Origin: Candidatus Hodarchaeota archaeon
Lineage (GTDB): Archaea > Asgardarchaeota > Lokiarchaeia > Sigyniarchaeales > SOKP01
Assembly: GCA_048887225.1 (NCBI GenBank)
Contig: JBHLJY010000004.1
Location: 160,001 to 224,000 of the forward strand
DNA: 64,000 nt
Direction: 5' to 3'
Within the stretch, counting starts at the first letter, position 1. The number at the start of each line of letters is the position of its first letter. This document shows positions 4,480-59,236 of this stretch, piece by piece. A model generated the notes under the pieces. It was not told the origin of the DNA and searched no databases. It saw only the letters and a list, made by a program, of their open reading frames with translations. Made by a program: the position numbers and the translations under genes.

Positions 4480-5403
4480 ATGAAGATAATGACGAAGAAT
4501 CAGAATTTAACAAGGGATGTTAAGGAATTTTTGCTTGAAAAAGGAGCGGATCGTGTGGGAATTGCCTCAATTTCCCGATTTGCTGAATGTCCTGAGGAAA
4601 CACATCCTCAACACTATATACCTGATGCTACTTGTGTTATCTCCTATGGAATTAAAATTATTGATGAAATATGCGATATTTGGGGGGAACATAATCAATC
4701 TCATAAAAGTGCAGCTCCATATCTATATTATGGGTATGGATTAGTAAATTGGGAACTTTCTCGGATAGGACACCTTACAGCAAAACGGATTTTAGAATTT
4801 CATGGTTATAAAGCTCTTATGTTTCCTCCAACCTTCGTTTTAGGGCAATATAGATTTCTTCATAGAATTGTGGAAGAAGATCCTATTTTTTTAGCAGATT
4901 TTTCCCATCGTCACGCAGCGGTGGCAGCTGGTCTTGGTGAATTTGGATTGAGTGGATTAGTTTTAGTACCAAAGTATGGTTCTCGAATACGTTTTAATTC
5001 AATTATAACCAATGCACCATTGGTGGCAGATCCGATGTATAACGGACCAAAATTGTGCCAACCTGAAAAATGCAATCATAAATGTGTATGTGATTGTCCA
5101 ACGGAAGCGTTGACTCTCGATGAGACCTTCACAGTGAAAATTGGTGAAAATTTATATAAATATTGTAAAGCAGAAAAAATGCGATGTAATATGGCTGTTT
5201 TTGGCTTAGTGGGAGGCACAGGTGCTAGAACGAGGAGAAAATTACCCAAACGAGCAAAAAAGAAAATCACGATTGATGATTTCTTTAAAGCACGCCAAAG
5301 GCAGAATGCATTTGATAAATTTTTCATAAATGAACGTCCTCTCGTAATGGGGGATTTTTGTGGAAAATGCCTTCATGGCTGTATTTCCCACAAATTATTA
5401 TGA
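4480..5403 (+). CDS. Epoxyqueuosine reductase/reductive dehalogenase-like cobalamin 4Fe-4S protein
   Basis: GADRVGIA, FSHRHAAVAAGLGEFGLSG, YGSRIRFNSIITNAPL, C..CNHKCVCDCP and CGKCLHGC motifs. Confidence 0.8.
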   Translation: MKIMTKNQNLTRDVKEFLLEKGADRVGIASISRFAECPEETHPQHYIPDATCVISYGIKIIDEICDIWGEHNQSHKSAAPYLYYGYGLVNWELSRIGHLTAKRILEFHGYKALMFPPTFVLGQYRFLHRIVEEDPIFLADFSHRHAAVAAGLGEFGLSGLVLVPKYGSRIRFNSIITNAPLVADPMYNGPKLCQPEKCNHKCVCDCPTEALTLDETFTVKIGENLYKYCKAEKMRCNMAVFGLVGGTGARTRRKLPKRAKKKITIDDFFKARQRQNAFDKFFINERPLVMGDFCGKCLHGCISHKLL

Positions 5404-49316: not shown

Positions 49317-50036
49317 ATGCATTTACCAGATGGTTTGTTAGACCCAATAACAACGGTAATGCTATGGGTTATTACGGTAGCGATACTGATATTTTGTTTC
49401 TCAAGTATTGTAGATGCTTTTAAAGAAGAGGATTCTGAGAAAATAGTACCCTACATAGGCGTGTTAGCGGCCACGATTTTTGCGTTTCAATTTGTCAATT
49501 ATCCAATTCCAGGAGGTACATCAGGACATTTAGTCGGTGGAACCGTGGTTGGAGTAATTCTTGGGCCTTGGGCGGCGGTTATTGTTCTATTTATGGTTTT
49601 AATAGTTCAGAGTTTATTTGGTGATGGAGGAATTACAGCTATAGGCGCAAATACTTTTAATATGGGAATAATTGGTGGAATTGTCGGATTTTACATTGTT
49701 AAAATGATTATTATGATATTAAACAAAACTAATCTTAGAAAGGAGACAAAATTAACAATAGCTACTGGGATTGGTTCTTACATTGCGATTATTTTGGCAG
49801 CATTAGCGTGTGCTATTGAAATTGGAATTGGAGGCGCTATACCGATGGAGATAATAATCCCTGCTATGATTTTCTGGCATATTTTTATAGGTATCGGAGA
49901 AGGGATAATCTCAGCATTAATTGTGTGGTTTATATACAAAACAAAACCTGACTTAATCACAACAGAAGAAAAGTTGAAGCTCGATGATGAAGAACATGTA
50001 GTTTTAACATCAGAAGAAGTTGTGGAGGTTACATAA
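49317..50036 (+). CDS. cbiM: ECF Co/Ni transporter substrate-binding component CbiM/NikM
   Basis: MHLPDGLL N-terminus, GGTSGHLVG and FGDGGITAIGAN motifs. Confidence 0.92.
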   Translation: MHLPDGLLDPITTVMLWVITVAILIFCFSSIVDAFKEEDSEKIVPYIGVLAATIFAFQFVNYPIPGGTSGHLVGGTVVGVILGPWAAVIVLFMVLIVQSLFGDGGITAIGANTFNMGIIGGIVGFYIVKMIIMILNKTNLRKETKLTIATGIGSYIAIILAALACAIEIGIGGAIPMEIIIPAMIFWHIFIGIGEGIISALIVWFIYKTKPDLITTEEKLKLDDEEHVVLTSEEVVEVT

Positions 50037-50039
50037 GAG

Positions 50040-50348
50040 ATGAGTGGTATTGAAAAATATAAATGGCCAGTTCTTACAATTGTAATAATAATTGTTGCTT
50101 TAATGTTAATGATAGCAGTCGGATTTACAATTGGTATCTTAACTGAAGATCCAGATGGATTAGAGAGATCAATAATTGACGCTAGAGGTGAGGATTGGCT
50201 TGAAAGTTTATCCTCTCCATGGGAGCCAATATTAGGATGGATTGGAAACGATTACATTATAGGAATTGTGGGTATTTTTATTACTGTTTTCTTAATAATT
50301 GCTGTGTTTAAATTAGTCGTTAATCTAAAAAAGAAAAAGCAGCAGTAA
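50040..50348 (+). CDS. PDGLE-domain (NikN/CbiN-like) component
   Basis: Two TM helices flanking PDGLE. Confidence 0.85.
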   Translation: MSGIEKYKWPVLTIVIIIVALMLMIAVGFTIGILTEDPDGLERSIIDARGEDWLESLSSPWEPILGWIGNDYIIGIVGIFITVFLIIAVFKLVVNLKKKKQQ

Positions 50349-50435
50349 TCTTTAATATCTCAAAAATTAACTAAATCATACTCGAGACAAATTTTAATAA
50401 CCTAAATCAAAGACATCCAAAGGAGTAATAATAAT

Positions 50436-51233
50436 TTGGAAGCAATTTTACCATTTAGACACGAAAACGAGAAAACATTCTTGAATGAAGTTCATCCTTT
50501 AGTTAGAATGATTTTACCCTTTATTTTTATAATTCCATTTCTCCTAATCGATAATGTTTACCAGATATATATATTTATCATAATTACATTTTTCTTCAGT
50601 CTGATCGTACATTTACCTCTTTTGAGAATTCTTTCAAGACTCAAAAATATTATTCCTTTTATATTTTTTATTACCATTTTTATACCTTTTTATGTAGGAG
50701 AAACTATAATTCTTAAAATTGAAATCGGAATTACTATTAATATTTATAAGGAAGGCTTAACTCGAGCACTTTTATTATTTATGAGAATTTTTGGAGCTAC
50801 GTATATTTTCATGTCATTTTTCTCTTCTTTAACGTATTCAGAGTTTATTGAAGCTCTAACAATGATGAGACTTCCTTCATTTTTAGTTGGTAGTTTCATT
50901 ATAATGCTTCATTATATTCCGATTATAGTTAGTTCAAATAAAAAAATACTGGAGGCTCAAGAACTCCGTGGAAAAAAAATTACAAATTATTGGGAAAAGT
51001 TAAAAGCTCATGGCTACGTAATGGGAAAGAGTCTTGTATCAAATATGGAACGTAGCGAAAAGCTGTACGAAAGTTTAAAAATGCGAGGATTTACAGGTAA
51101 ACTAACTCTTGCTCCGAGGAATATTAAAATAATTGATATAATGTTGTTAGTTCTCTTTCTCGTACTTACTATATATTTCATTTATTTTTTCAATTTGGAT
51201 ATGTTTTATAAGGAGGTTTTAGCACAATTTTAG
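50436..51233 (+). CDS. cbiQ: ECF transmembrane component CbiQ/NikQ
   Basis: AQELRG and SLKMRGF arginine motifs; TM segments. Confidence 0.88.
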   Translation: MEAILPFRHENEKTFLNEVHPLVRMILPFIFIIPFLLIDNVYQIYIFIIITFFFSLIVHLPLLRILSRLKNIIPFIFFITIFIPFYVGETIILKIEIGITINIYKEGLTRALLLFMRIFGATYIFMSFFSSLTYSEFIEALTMMRLPSFLVGSFIIMLHYIPIIVSSNKKILEAQELRGKKITNYWEKLKAHGYVMGKSLVSNMERSEKLYESLKMRGFTGKLTLAPRNIKIIDIMLLVLFLVLTIYFIYFFNLDMFYKEVLAQF

Positions 51234-51976
51234 CTGTAGAAGTTGAAGATTTGAATTTTAATTATAAAAATGGTTTTAGTATTCAGAATTTATCGTTAAA
51301 AATAGAAAAAAATTCAATTTATGCCTTAACGGGTAATAATGGTTCAGGTAAAACAACTTTATTGAGGTTGTTGGTTGGTTTATTAAAACCAAAATCGGGA
51401 ACAATCAAGATTTTTGATGAAGTTCTTACGAGAAATAAAATGCAACTATGGAAGATTAGGCAAAAAATTGGATTTTTATTTCAGAATCCAGATGATCAAT
51501 TATTTGCTCCAACTATAGAAGAAGATGTGGGTTTCGGAGCAAGGAATTTAAAACTAGAGCAAAGCGAAGTAAAAAAACGTGTAGAATGGGCTCTAAAAGC
51601 AGTTAATTTATTAGATTTTAAAGAATTTTCACCCTTTAATTTATCTTGGGGACAAAAAAAACGAGCTTCATTAGCCGGCTTATTAGTAATGAGACCAAAA
51701 CTTTTAATTTTAGATGAGCCATTTGCTAATCTTGATTTTAAATCAATTTACAGCCATCTTGGAATTTTTGAAAAATTAAGGAAAGAAGAGAGGATGACAA
51801 TTTTATTCACATCTCATAATTTATTTTTTGTGGAGAATTGGGCGGATAAGATGCTCGTATTAAATGGCGGTAAATCAATATTTGAAGGCAATCCGAAAAA
51901 AGGACTAGATCATCCCAAAGTTAAGAAAATAATGGGATCATACGACGAGATTAGTGAATTAATTAAAAAGAAATGA
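51227..51976 (+). CDS. cbiO: ECF ATPase CbiO/NikO (probable ATT start at 51227; ORF track TTG at 51251)
   Basis: GNNGSGKTT, FQNPDDQLF, LSWGQKKR and LDEP motifs; AGGAGG at 51211-51216. Confidence 0.9.
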   Translation: MLAVEVEDLNFNYKNGFSIQNLSLKIEKNSIYALTGNNGSGKTTLLRLLVGLLKPKSGTIKIFDEVLTRNKMQLWKIRQKIGFLFQNPDDQLFAPTIEEDVGFGARNLKLEQSEVKKRVEWALKAVNLLDFKEFSPFNLSWGQKKRASLAGLLVMRPKLLILDEPFANLDFKSIYSHLGIFEKLRKEERMTILFTSHNLFFVENWADKMLVLNGGKSIFEGNPKKGLDHPKVKKIMGSYDEISELIKKK

Positions 51977-52062: not shown

Positions 52063-52518
52063 ATGCATCTCGTATTAACTTACTTTCACAACATAAAAGG
52101 ACCTGATATTTTAATGTCTTATCCAGACATAAAATTAGAACAAGATATAATTGAAAAATTGATGCGATTTTTTGATCTGGACATTAACGAGACTTTTTTT
52201 GAGATTATTTTGATAAACAAGCATAAAAGAATTATAAATTTATTTTTTGAACTTCCTTCTGAGTGGGCCCGTGGAAAAATACAACTTGCTATGCTTTCTT
52301 TGATAATGAAAGAAAAGTACGATAGTAGAATGATTTATACGTTCTTAATTGATGCTGTTCATAAAATTATCTCCACTGAAAATGTTTTTAAGGCTTTTTA
52401 TAAACGCGATGACTTTCAAGATAATGATATTGGAATTGATTTAGGTTATGAAGCGATAAAAAAGATTTTATTTAATTGTTTAAGTAGTTTAATAAAGAGA
52501 TTGAAATCTAAAACTTAA
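52063..52518 (+). CDS. uDENN/longin-like domain protein
   Basis: LVLTYFHNIKGPDILMSYP N-terminus; ARG..QLAMLSL. Confidence 0.55.
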   Translation: MHLVLTYFHNIKGPDILMSYPDIKLEQDIIEKLMRFFDLDINETFFEIILINKHKRIINLFFELPSEWARGKIQLAMLSLIMKEKYDSRMIYTFLIDAVHKIISTENVFKAFYKRDDFQDNDIGIDLGYEAIKKILFNCLSSLIKRLKSKT

Positions 52519-52561
52519 AAATAAAAAAGGAATCTTTAAAATATTTTTTTCTATTATTATA

Positions 52562-52885
52562 TTGGGAAAATAATGACGGAACATCCGCGTTTTCGAGGGC
52601 ACATATGAATATGGATGATTATGTGTGCAAAGAAATGCGAACATCCAGAATTTGATAATCAGTAATTACCTGCGAATAAAACGGGCTCTTTACTAAGCTA
52701 TGATAAAGATCAATGCAATGAGGTTGAAGCCAGCACCCAGATCGCAGACATGATTATTTCCCAAAAAGGCATGAAATTAACGCCTAACACGAGAGAACTT
52801 TTTTAATTTTACGGTATATCCTATAAAAATGAGAAAAAAGTGTTAGTGTGTTTCGGCTCCTTAGGCTACAATCATGCCTTACCCA
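52562..52885 (+). ncRNA. Candidate ~320-nt two-domain structured RNA of unknown family
   Basis: Long-range stems TTGGGAAAATAAT/ATTATTTCCCAA and AAGGCATGA/TCATGCCTT plus several internal helices; lies between convergent genes; TATA-like element upstream, T-rich tract downstream. Confidence 0.55.
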
Positions 52886-56781: not shown

Positions 56782-57753
56782 TTATCTTTTTTTTAACGAA
56801 ATTCCTAGGTTAAGATTTTCAAATAATTCGCTAAATCTATTTCTAATTGTAACTTCTGTAACCTGTGAAATTTTAGCAATTTTTCTTTGAGTTCTTCTTT
56901 CTTTACATAATATTGAAGCCGCATATATGGCAGCTGCGCAAACTCCAGTTGGACCTCTCCCAGAAGTTAAACCACGTAGTTCTGCTATTTTTATTATTTT
57001 TTTGGATTTTTTATGGCACTGTTGAGATAAACCTAATTCACTTATAAAGCGTATGAGGAAATCCAAAGGTTTAGTAGGATTCAAATTTAATTTTAATTCT
57101 TTTGAAATAAATCTAAAAGACCGACCAATTTCTTTTTTATTGACGCGTGCAACTTCCGCAATTTCATTTAATGTTCTAGGTACATGGAACATTCTACAAG
57201 CTGCATATAAGCTTGCTGCAGCGACCCCTTCAATAGATCTTCCACGAATTAAATGTGCTTCTACTGCATCTCTGTATATTTTTGCTGAGCATTCTCGTAA
57301 ATTCTTTTGAAGATCTAAATTTGAAGCCATACGATCTAATTCACTTAAGGCGAACGTTAAATTTCTTTCAGTTGCATCAGATACTCTAATACGGCTCTGC
57401 CATTTTCGGAGCCGATAAATTTGTGCTCTTAATTTAGCGGGTATTTCCTTTCCGAAGATATCACGATTTTTCCAGTCAATCATTGTACTTAGACCTTTAT
57501 CGTGTATCATGTATGTCATTGGTGCTCCTGTTCTTGTTCTCTTCTTTTTCTGATCAGCATCAAATGCTCGCCATTCTGGCCCGTGATCAATCCATTTCTC
57601 GGATTTTATTAACCCACATTGTTCACATACCATGAAACCTCTATTTCCATCATAAGAGATAGTATTGCCACATTCTGAACAATGTTTTGATGATAATCCA
57701 TCATCATCATGTTTTTCTTCATGTAAAGTCTTAACTTCTTTCCAACTTGAAAT
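56782..57753 (-). CDS. tfb: Transcription initiation factor IIB (probable ATT start at 57753)
   Basis: Complete Zn ribbon CSECG...CEQCG only with the upstream extension; GPEWRAF, HDKGLST and two cyclin repeats. Confidence 0.95.
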
Positions 57754-57810: not shown

Positions 57811-58059
57811 TTACACTTTCACATAAAGATTGCTTTTCGGGTTAAATTCTTGACTGGTAATGATTTTAATCGATATAAAAGGTAAAGAGAGAGGCCCAAA
57901 TATTTCTTTAATATATCCAATTTTCTCGTATTTTTCATTATAAACAGGTTTTCTAAAAATTCTTTCGTCTCGGCCTCTATTCCAACTCGTCGTCCTAAAA
58001 ATTCGATTTTTTTTAGACTCTCCTAAATAATATAAGTTTAGTTTAACCCAATCTTTCAA
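57811..58059 (-). CDS. gar1: H/ACA RNP component Gar1/Naf1-like (probable TTG start at 58059)
   Basis: KPVYNEKYEKIGYIKEIFGPLSLPFISIK; gar1-tfb adjacency is common in archaea. Confidence 0.75.
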   Translation of the reverse strand: MKDWVKLNLYYLGESKKNRIFRTTSWNRGRDERIFRKPVYNEKYEKIGYIKEIFGPLSLPFISIKIITSQEFNPKSNLYVKV

Positions 58060-58135
58060 ATTATTACCATACCAAGTTGCTAAGTAATGAATAGTTGATT
58101 GGTAGTTAATATTTAAATTTTTCCTCCAAATTTTT

Positions 58136-59236
58136 TTAACAATAATGTCGTTGTAGATGATACATCGTTTTACAACCACATTCTTCGTATGGTTTTTCTA
58201 AGAAATTTATATTTTGATTTAATACAAAATTTTTAAGAAGCTTAATCATATTTTCATTGCAGTTTCTTTTTAAACAATTATGAATCCCTCGTTTGGTTCC
58301 TGCTCCTGAAGGATCAGAAATAATTCTCACGCTTTTAAGGTTATCTTGAGTTATCGATTTTTTTAGACATTTTATGAGGGAATAGAACCAAGGAGGTCTA
58401 TACCTATTTTGAAACCACAGATATTCTGTAAAGCTTCCTTTTTGAATATTTAAGGGATTAATAGATATTGTATTTAATTTTAAATTAACTAAAGTCTTTA
58501 TTGATTCTACGCAATCATCTATTGCACTTATTTCATTAAAAAAAGGTGGTTTAAATAATAAGTAAGTTTTGACTCCTATGCTATGTTCTTTACAAAGTTG
58601 GAGAGTATTTTTAAATTCGTCATATAAAAGTCCTTTATTAATATAGTTATTTCTGATATAATCATTAACAGTTTCAAGACCAATTCCAACTTCAATATAT
58701 TTATTTTTTAAAGAATCACACAATTCTTCAAGTTTCTCAGACGAGACATATTCAATCCGAGATTCAATTACAACCTCTTTTATTTTTGTAATTTTTGCTA
58801 TTTTGTTGTATATATAAGAGCGAACATTTTTGGCAACTTCATTCTCGTCAAGAAAACTTCCTGAATTAAATAATTTTAACACATAATTATACTTATCATT
58901 TTCAATCTCATCTAATTTGTTTTGGAGTGCATAATTAAATTGACTTATAATTTGATTAGGTTTGACTTCGTTAATATTAGCGTCTTGTACGTATCCGCAC
59001 ATGGAACACCCTCCTGTTCCACCTAAAGCCCAATTGCAACCACGAGTTCTTAAAATAATTGTGAACTCTTTTCCAATCTCGTTTAGAAGTCTATCTTTTT
59101 TTATCCAAAAACTTATTGGTTTTTCTAACTGTTCTTTTGTAAATTCTAGTTTCTTTTTAAGTTTTTCCCTCCTAATACTTTTTATTCTATCAACTAACGA
59201 TTCATTATATTTAATGTTTCTATTACCTGCTCTCAT
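58136..59236 (-). CDS. Archaeosine biosynthesis radical SAM protein RaSEA
   Basis: LRTRGCNW...GGCSMC, FNSGSFLD, YLLFKPPF, YRPPWF and GTKRGIHNC motifs; adjacent to arcS. Confidence 0.9.
   Translation of the reverse strand: MRAGNRNIKYNESLVDRIKSIRREKLKKKLEFTKEQLEKPISFWIKKDRLLNEIGKEFTIILRTRGCNWALGGTGGCSMCGYVQDANINEVKPNQIISQFNYALQNKLDEIENDKYNYVLKLFNSGSFLDENEVAKNVRSYIYNKIAKITKIKEVVIESRIEYVSSEKLEELCDSLKNKYIEVGIGLETVNDYIRNNYINKGLLYDEFKNTLQLCKEHSIGVKTYLLFKPPFFNEISAIDDCVESIKTLVNLKLNTISINPLNIQKGSFTEYLWFQNRYRPPWFYSLIKCLKKSITQDNLKSVRIISDPSGAGTKRGIHNCLKRNCNENMIKLLKNFVLNQNINFLEKPYEECGCKTMYHLQRHYC

What the first reader, a model, noticed from the sequence alone, without database searches (positions are those of the whole stretch)
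52562..52885. Unannotated ~320-nt structured RNA between convergent uDENN-like and roadblock genes
Seen: a GC-enriched island with no convincing ORF. Domain 1 (52562-52764) is closed by TTGGGAAAATAAT/ATTATTTCCCAA and contains GCACATAT/ATGTGTGC, CTGCGA/TCGCAG and TCTTTA/TAAAGA helices plus a repeated GAACATCC. Domain 2 (52766-52880) is closed by AAGGCATGA/TCATGCCTT with GCCTAA/TTAGGC and ACTTTTTT/AAAAAAGT, and has a mutually exclusive CTAACAC/GTGTTAG pairing. A G-U pair favours the + strand. TATA-like TTTAAAATA lies about 20-25 nt upstream. I could not find canonical SRP helix-8 or RNase P conserved regions. Inference: an independent transcript, either a new family or a highly diverged known RNA.
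Basis: partly seen in the sequence, partly recalled or inferred. Interest (0 to 1): 0.7.

Follow-up and report, generated by a model that had tools for sequence, protein, structure and literature searches.

The report
Three-hairpin pseudouridine guide RNA, Asgard
This is a real small RNA gene of an Asgard archaeon that most likely tells the enzyme Cbf5 which three uridines in the working core of the large ribosomal RNA to convert to pseudouridine; it is a diverged copy of a known archaeal guide RNA, with some extra structural clamps, not a new kind of RNA.

Summary
Real RNA gene (about 52562-52880, + strand), but not a new family. It is single-copy in 56/60 genomes of its family and 127/150 Asgard genomes, with strong covariation; the genome's SRP and RNase P RNAs lie elsewhere. 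It folds into three box H/ACA hairpins, each with a pocket, an apical kink-turn and an ACA box. A scan of 1065 rRNA uridines ranks first 23S U2496, U2586 and U1917 (U1915 4th-5th; E. coli numbering), each 14 nt from ACA. These are the sites, in the same order, of the Pab40/Pf7/Afu4 (Rfam HgcG) guide. Distant Asgard homologues hit HgcG (E 2e-11, below cut-off); this copy gives no Rfam hit. Cbf5, Nop10, L7Ae and a Gar1-like gene are present. Differences from HgcG: a covarying extra kink-turn closing hairpin 1, helices clamping hairpins 2 and 3, and a re-registered hairpin-3 pocket. This copy also has a 10-nt insertion that may impair hairpin 3. Expression and pseudouridylation were not testable.

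The parts
52535..52541 (+). TATA-like box, with a purine-rich BRE-like stretch just upstream
   Evidence: sequence; T-rich box at the same distance in most homologues; start site not measured
52562..52880 (+). Whole RNA gene: three-motif box H/ACA guide, Asgard homologue of HgcG/Pab40
52564..52566 (+). 5' GGG pairing with CCC at 52760-52762, closing hairpins 1 and 2 into one domain
   Evidence: 95% paired, no double changes; family-level feature
52568..52580 (+). 5' strand of the extra basal kink-turn (AAAT, bulge AAT, GA, C, GGA)
   Evidence: 45 of 54 scoreable homologues, with compensatory changes in both stems
52586..52643 (+). H/ACA hairpin 1: lower stem GCGTT/AATGC, 5' guide TCGAGG (52593-52598), upper stem with K-loop (TGA...GATGAT), 3' guide GCAA (52627-52630), ACA box 52641-52643; predicted target 23S U2496
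   Evidence: covariation; rank 1 of 1065 U, 14 nt to ACA; 14 nt in 57/72 copies
52644..52653 (+). 3' strand of the basal kink-turn (TCC, A, GA, ATTT), directly after ACA box 1
   Evidence: C-stem 97% paired
52655..52661 (+). ATAATCA, pairs with TGATTAT 52751-52757: helix clamping hairpin 2 below its ACA box
   Evidence: 97% paired but nearly invariant in the family; different complementary sequences in distant Asgard copies (by eye)
52670..52750 (+). H/ACA hairpin 2: lower stem CTGCGA/TCGCAG, weak 5' guide ACGG, upper stem GGCT/AGCC, variant kink-turn, side hairpin, 3' guide ACCCAG (52735-52740), ACA box 52748-52750; predicted target 23S U2586
   Evidence: covariation; rank 1 of 1065 U, 14 nt; pairing holds in matched guide/rRNA pairs
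52768..52772 (+). GGCAT, pairs with ATGCC 52874-52878: helix clamping hairpin 3
   Evidence: 93.5% paired; both strands lost together in L026, L027, L032
52782..52870 (+). H/ACA hairpin 3: lower stem GCCTAA/TTAGGC plus CAC/GTG, 5' guide GAGAG (52791-52795), upper stem with kink-turn (5' GA reads AA in this copy), 3' guide GTTA/TAGT (52842-52847), ACA box 52868-52870; predicted target helix-69 loop U1917 and/or U1915
52849..52858 (+). 10-nt insertion in the hairpin-3 lower stem, restricted to this genome and close relatives; guide-to-ACA distance becomes 26 nt instead of 16

Best explanation
A stand-alone box H/ACA guide RNA, the Asgard orthologue of HgcG/Pab40/Pf7/Afu4. Shown by sequence and covariation: three hairpins, each with an internal pocket, apical kink-turn or K-loop and ACA box, and bipartite complementarity to three conserved 23S rRNA sites at 14 nt from ACA. 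Inferred from established H/ACA biochemistry: L7Ae binds each kink-turn, Cbf5-Nop10-Gar1 dock on each lower stem and ACA, and the flanked uridine is isomerised to pseudouridine: U2496 (hairpin 1), U2586 (hairpin 2) and U1917 and/or U1915 of helix 69 (hairpin 3). Inferred: transcription from its own TATA promoter; the extra basal kink-turn and clamp helices stabilise the RNA and give L7Ae a further site.
For: Single copy in 127/150 Asgard genomes, 67/72 of the good ones. ANA boxes in 26/26 family copies at all three hairpins. The target scan puts U2496, U2586 and U1917 first of 1065 U in both the family and the pan-Asgard set; numbering from alignment to E. coli rrlB. The same sites in the same order are published for Pab40/Pf7/Afu4: P. 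abyssi 2588, 2678 (predicted for Afu4/Pf7) and 2016 (PMC2377435), and for H. volcanii sR-h45: 2605 and 1940/1942 (PMC7075261). Homologues found with my model hit HgcG on the same strand and place (E 2e-11 to 0.9). Cbf5, Nop10 and L7Ae pass their cut-offs; a Gar1-like gene lies at window 57811-58179.
Against: This copy gives no Rfam hit even at E 10, and no homologue reaches the HgcG gathering score of 77 bits (best 50.5). The genome's own rRNA is unassembled, so targets come from same-genus and same-family 23S. I wrote the scan's scoring after seeing the pairings by eye. The 5' guides of hairpins 2 and 3 pair distally, leaving 3-5 target bases unpaired. In this copy hairpin 3 has a 10-nt insertion and an AA in place of the kink-turn GA. 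One relative (G010) has C at 2586 yet keeps hairpin 2.
Confidence: 0.9

Rival explanations
1. An H/ACA RNP that also acts as a chaperone of large-subunit rRNA folding. The conserved hairpin-2 segment GGGCTCTT could pair with the helix-89 loop (2467-2475), next to hairpin 1's target, to help open or order the peptidyl-transferase region.
For: The segment is invariant in 26/26 family copies. Its helix-89 complement ranks 1st and 2nd of about 4600-4850 rRNA positions, with 6-9 of 9 pairs in the matched genomes where the site was located.
Against: The margin over a chance 16S site is nil (18.6 vs 18.3). No clear guide-rRNA covariation, and one internal mismatch in G156. The segment is already explained as 5' guide plus upper stem.
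Confidence: 0.06
2. A box C/D-H/ACA hybrid (U85-like) in which the basal kink-turn recruits Nop5/fibrillarin and guides a 2'-O-methylation.
For: The basal motif resembles boxes C and D (RATGANGG / CCNGA) and encloses hairpin 1.
Against: The position that is U-U in C/D motifs is unconstrained (C-A, T-T, A-T, T-A). The 10-12 nt before the D-like box are the variable lower stem and ACA of hairpin 1, not a conserved antisense element.
Confidence: 0.03
3. A new RNA family unrelated to known classes, or a diverged SRP/RNase P RNA.
For: No Rfam hit for this copy.
Against: SRP RNA (C14) and RNase P RNA (C25) are elsewhere in the genome. Homologues match HgcG. H/ACA geometry and targets are met.
Confidence: 0.01

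Closest known systems
HgcG / Pab40 / Pf7 / Pho40 / Afu4 three-motif box H/ACA sRNA (Rfam RF00064; PMC2377435)
   Same: Three motifs in the same order; guide sequences align (CGAGG/GCNA, AACCC, GUGUUA); targets 2496, 2586 and the helix-69 loop; extra stem-loop in motif 2; own promoter.
   Different: Extra basal kink-turn directly after ACA 1; clamp helices after ACA 2 and 3 and longer linkers (absent from the Rfam consensus and from Asgard family f10); hairpin-3 5' guide GAGAG instead of GGUUAG with 16 rather than 14 nt from GUUA to ACA; below the Rfam cut-off.
Haloferax volcanii sR-h45 (PMC7075261)
   Same: Its two stem-loops guide 2605 (E. coli 2586) and 1940/1942 (1915/1917), matching hairpins 2 and 3 in order; its second pocket also leaves UNUN unpaired.
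   Different: sR-h45 has no 2496 hairpin and has a pseudoknot-capable linker; here five target bases would be unpaired. Some Asgard copies match only model positions 107-292, as a two-hairpin form would.
Eukaryotic H/ACA snoRNAs snR191/U19 (1915/1917 equivalents; PMC7075261) and snR46 (2496 equivalent; from memory)
   Same: Same class, same protein core, same conserved rRNA sites.
   Different: Two hairpins without kink-turns, one site per hairpin; no sequence homology was tested.

Membership tests
Archaeal box H/ACA guide RNA | Hairpin with lower stem, internal pocket and upper stem | tested here: met
   Covariation in lower and upper stems of all three hairpins
Archaeal box H/ACA guide RNA | ANA box 3' of each hairpin | tested here: met
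   26/26 at each hairpin in the family; ACA at 52641, 52748, 52868
Archaeal box H/ACA guide RNA | [quoted passage not shown] | tested here: met
   Hairpin 1 canonical; hairpins 2 and 3 keep the RUGA strand but have A/U variants on the other strand in this copy
Archaeal box H/ACA guide RNA | Bipartite complementarity flanking a target U | tested here: met
   Rank 1 of 1065 U for each hairpin; hairpins 1 and 2 hold in matched genomes; own rRNA unassembled
Archaeal box H/ACA guide RNA | 14-16 nt from target position to ACA (hairpins 1 and 2) | tested here: met
   14 nt in this copy and in the family
Archaeal box H/ACA guide RNA | 14-16 nt from target position to ACA (hairpin 3) | tested here: inconclusive
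   14/16 nt in 46/72 copies; 24/26 nt in this copy unless the 10-nt insertion loops out
Archaeal box H/ACA guide RNA | Cbf5, Nop10, Gar1, L7Ae encoded | tested here: met
   over cut-off; Gar1 E 3e-6, just under cut-off
Archaeal box H/ACA guide RNA | Expression, Cbf5 binding, pseudouridine formation | not testable with these tools
   Needs bench work or RNA reads of this organism
HgcG/Pab40 family (RF00064) | Rfam gathering score of 77 bits | tested here: not met
   No hit for this copy; homologues 16-50 bits. Filed as a homologous variant, not a formal Rfam member
HgcG/Pab40 family (RF00064) | Three motifs with targets 2496, 2586, helix-69 loop in this order | tested here: met
   against PMC2377435. 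The P. abyssi offset of 92 is inferred from the Pab35 sites 2549/2672/2697, which the paper equates with the RluE/RluC/RluB sites (E. coli 2457/2580/2605, from memory)
HgcG/Pab40 family (RF00064) | Sequence homology | tested here: met
   Transitive: L129 matches my model at E 4e-21 and HgcG at E 2e-8; L146 matches HgcG at 2e-11
SRP RNA / RNase P RNA | Match to the family model; single gene per genome | tested here: not met
   Both genes found on other contigs
Box C/D guide | Canonical C/D boxes with a conserved antisense element before box D | tested here: not met
   Unconstrained U-U position, no conserved guide

The most novel reading that the evidence does not exclude
Most Asgard lineages carry a remodelled H/ACA architecture in which every ACA box sits in an internal loop closed by a further helix, hairpin 1 by a second L7Ae-binding kink-turn. 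One re-registered pocket slides by two bases to modify both U1915 and U1917, and a conserved segment may add a non-modifying contact with helix 89. This would be an undescribed RNP layout in the archaea closest to eukaryotes.
Probability: 0.3. Interest if true: 0.55.

Novelty: new variant of a known kind. Interest (0 to 1): 0.3.

Why it matters
I found no paper on Asgard H/ACA guides in the searched library, and Rfam cut-offs miss this gene. It gives testable predictions for pseudouridines at peptidyl-transferase and helix-69 sites. The 2496 and helix-69 sites are conserved in eukaryotes, and 2586 is modified in haloarchaea, fly and mouse (PMC2377435). It extends one guide family from Euryarchaeota to nearly all Asgard lineages. 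The extra kink-turn and clamps are a modest structural novelty. It is an expected housekeeping RNA, and this scan has reported it repeatedly.

Tried and rejected
Rfam scans of this copy: nothing; HgcG model on the whole genome: only noise elsewhere. SRP and RNase P rejected. Own rRNA not assembled; a family-wide 23S search failed. Sequencing runs: no RNA holder listed, so no reads could be laid. Two DNA patterns meant to fetch Pyrococcus/Archaeoglobus HgcG found nothing, and the Cbf5 search returned only close relatives, so comparison with HgcG rests on the Rfam consensus and papers. One search's target scan had off-by-one anchors and was replaced. The model energies had coordinate slips and are not used; its column-based conservation counts are. 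The helix-89 column was out of register and was redone, where the site was mislocated in three genomes. The sigma-70 scan does not apply to archaeal promoters. Plain 7-mer complementarity to rRNA was uninformative.

Full report
Observation. The stretch has no ORF of 60 aa, is GC-richer than its flanks and folds better on + (z -2.9) than on - (z -1.8). It lies between a 151-aa ORF (+) and a weak roadblock-like gene (-). The roadblock gene is near the RNA in 58 of 70 loci examined, the upstream ORF in only 19. A TATA-like box recurs at the same distance in most homologues, so the RNA most likely has its own promoter.

Organism and distribution. Relatives of the genome's Cbf5 are labelled Promethearchaeota/Promethearchaeia, one as Thorarchaeota: an Asgard archaeon. 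BLAST finds the element once per genome in 56/60 family genomes. A covariance model finds 93/101 family genomes and members of many other families. A broader sequence model finds 127/150 genomes of the phylum, 67/72 of the good ones. It was not found in some families searched (f19, f22) nor in one single-contig genome. SRP and RNase P RNAs are elsewhere, and Rfam gives nothing for this copy.

Structure. An earlier scan note suggested an H/ACA guide; I treated it as a lead and tested it. On 26 family homologues a 63-pair, three-hairpin model has 95.7% paired cells, 25 pairs with double changes and a covariation score of 0.25, against 0.12 shuffled and at most 0.08 slid (the model was derived from these sequences, so the slid control is lenient). 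Each hairpin ends in an ANA box in 26/26 copies and has an RUGA kink-turn strand in its upper part. The long 5'/3' closing helix, TCTTTA/TAAAGA and the GAACATCC repeat do not, and CTAACAC/GTGTTAG is not supported as a switch.

Targets. The genome's rRNA is unassembled, so I used 23S/16S from the same genus and family, numbered on E. coli rrlB. Scoring all 1065 uridines for bipartite pairing at 14-16 nt from ACA, averaged over homologues, put U2496 first for hairpin 1, U2586 first for hairpin 2 and U1917 first for hairpin 3 (U1915 4th-5th at 16 nt), in both the family and the pan-Asgard set. The scoring was written after I saw these pairings by eye, and hairpin 3's lead over chance sites is small. 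The weight of the result is that the top sites are those published for a known guide. In matched guide/rRNA pairs from 19 genomes the pairings of hairpins 1 and 2 mostly hold.

Comparison. Pab40/Pf7/Pho40/Afu4 has three motifs: motif 1 modifies P. abyssi 2588, motif 3 modifies 2016 in the helix-69 loop, and motif 2 is predicted to target the 2678 equivalent in Afu4 and Pf7 (PMC2377435). With an offset of 92 (inferred, partly from memory) these are E. coli 2496 and 2586. H. volcanii sR-h45 guides 2605 and 1940/1942, the latter pair from one pocket with UNUN unpaired (PMC7075261). Homologues found with my model hit Rfam HgcG at up to E 2e-11, below the gathering score, and align motif by motif. 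The RNA is therefore a homologue of HgcG by transitive sequence match, architecture and target order.

Differences from HgcG. (i) A second kink-turn closes hairpin 1 right after its ACA box: 45 of 54 scoreable copies, with compensatory changes in both stems. It is not a C/D guide. (ii) Helices clamp hairpins 2 and 3 below their ACA boxes; both strands of the hairpin-3 clamp are lost together in three genomes. Family f10 lacks these additions and resembles Pab40. (iii) Hairpin 3 uses GAGAG as 5' guide and has 16 nt from GUUA to ACA in 46/72 copies. One upper-stem base covaries with two partners two bases apart (18/26 and 19/26). This fits, but does not prove, alternate registers for U1915 and U1917. 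(iv) This genome's subclade has a 10-nt insertion in that hairpin, which must loop out for it to work.

Mechanism. Shown: conservation, fold, boxes, spacing, complementarity, and presence of Cbf5, Nop10, L7Ae and a Gar1-like gene. Inferred from established H/ACA biochemistry: RNP assembly on each hairpin and U-to-pseudouridine conversion at the three sites. Not tested: expression, binding, catalysis.

Verdict. A real RNA gene; a structural variant of a known guide family. Literature searches showed no Asgard description, but the scan already holds 23 matching findings in at least 18 genomes, including the basal kink-turn and closing helices. Interest 0.3.

Noticed in passing
window 57811-58179 (-), next to TFB-like ORF 56782-57633: Gar1-like gene (Pfam Gar1 E 3e-6, just under cut-off) 5 kb from the RNA, probably coincidental linkage.
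   Followed up: partly
23S rRNA loci L047 (G006), L046 (G026), L048 (G049): Insertions, probably introns, at or beside the guide's targets: after 1917 (G049), near 1926 (G026), after 2596 (G006).
   Followed up: no
L170 / L103 (G010): 23S has C instead of U at 2586, yet hairpin 2 and its 3' guide are largely retained.
   Followed up: no
G057:C17:42377-42458 (within L066): A second copy of hairpin 3 about 500 nt from the full RNA.
   Followed up: no
L134 (G232); matches at model positions 107-292: Apparent two-hairpin versions: hairpins 1+3 in G232, and possibly hairpins 2+3 (sR-h45-like) in several families.
   Followed up: partly
window 52683-52691: Invariant GGGCTCTT is complementary to the helix-89 loop (2467-2475), about 20 nt before hairpin 1's target; rank 1-2 but no margin over chance.
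   Followed up: partly
L143, L145, L146 (family f10): Pab40-like copies without clamps, followed about 60 nt later by a tRNA gene; hairpin 3 of L145/L146 lacks a well-placed ANA box.
   Followed up: no
window 52063-52518: 151-aa ORF with four paralogues in the genome and no Pfam match; present beside the RNA in only 19/70 loci; the uDENN label is unverified.
   Followed up: partly
window 49317-51976: CbiM-type cobalt/nickel ECF transporter operon, often directly upstream of the RNA in the family (37/70 loci).
   Followed up: no
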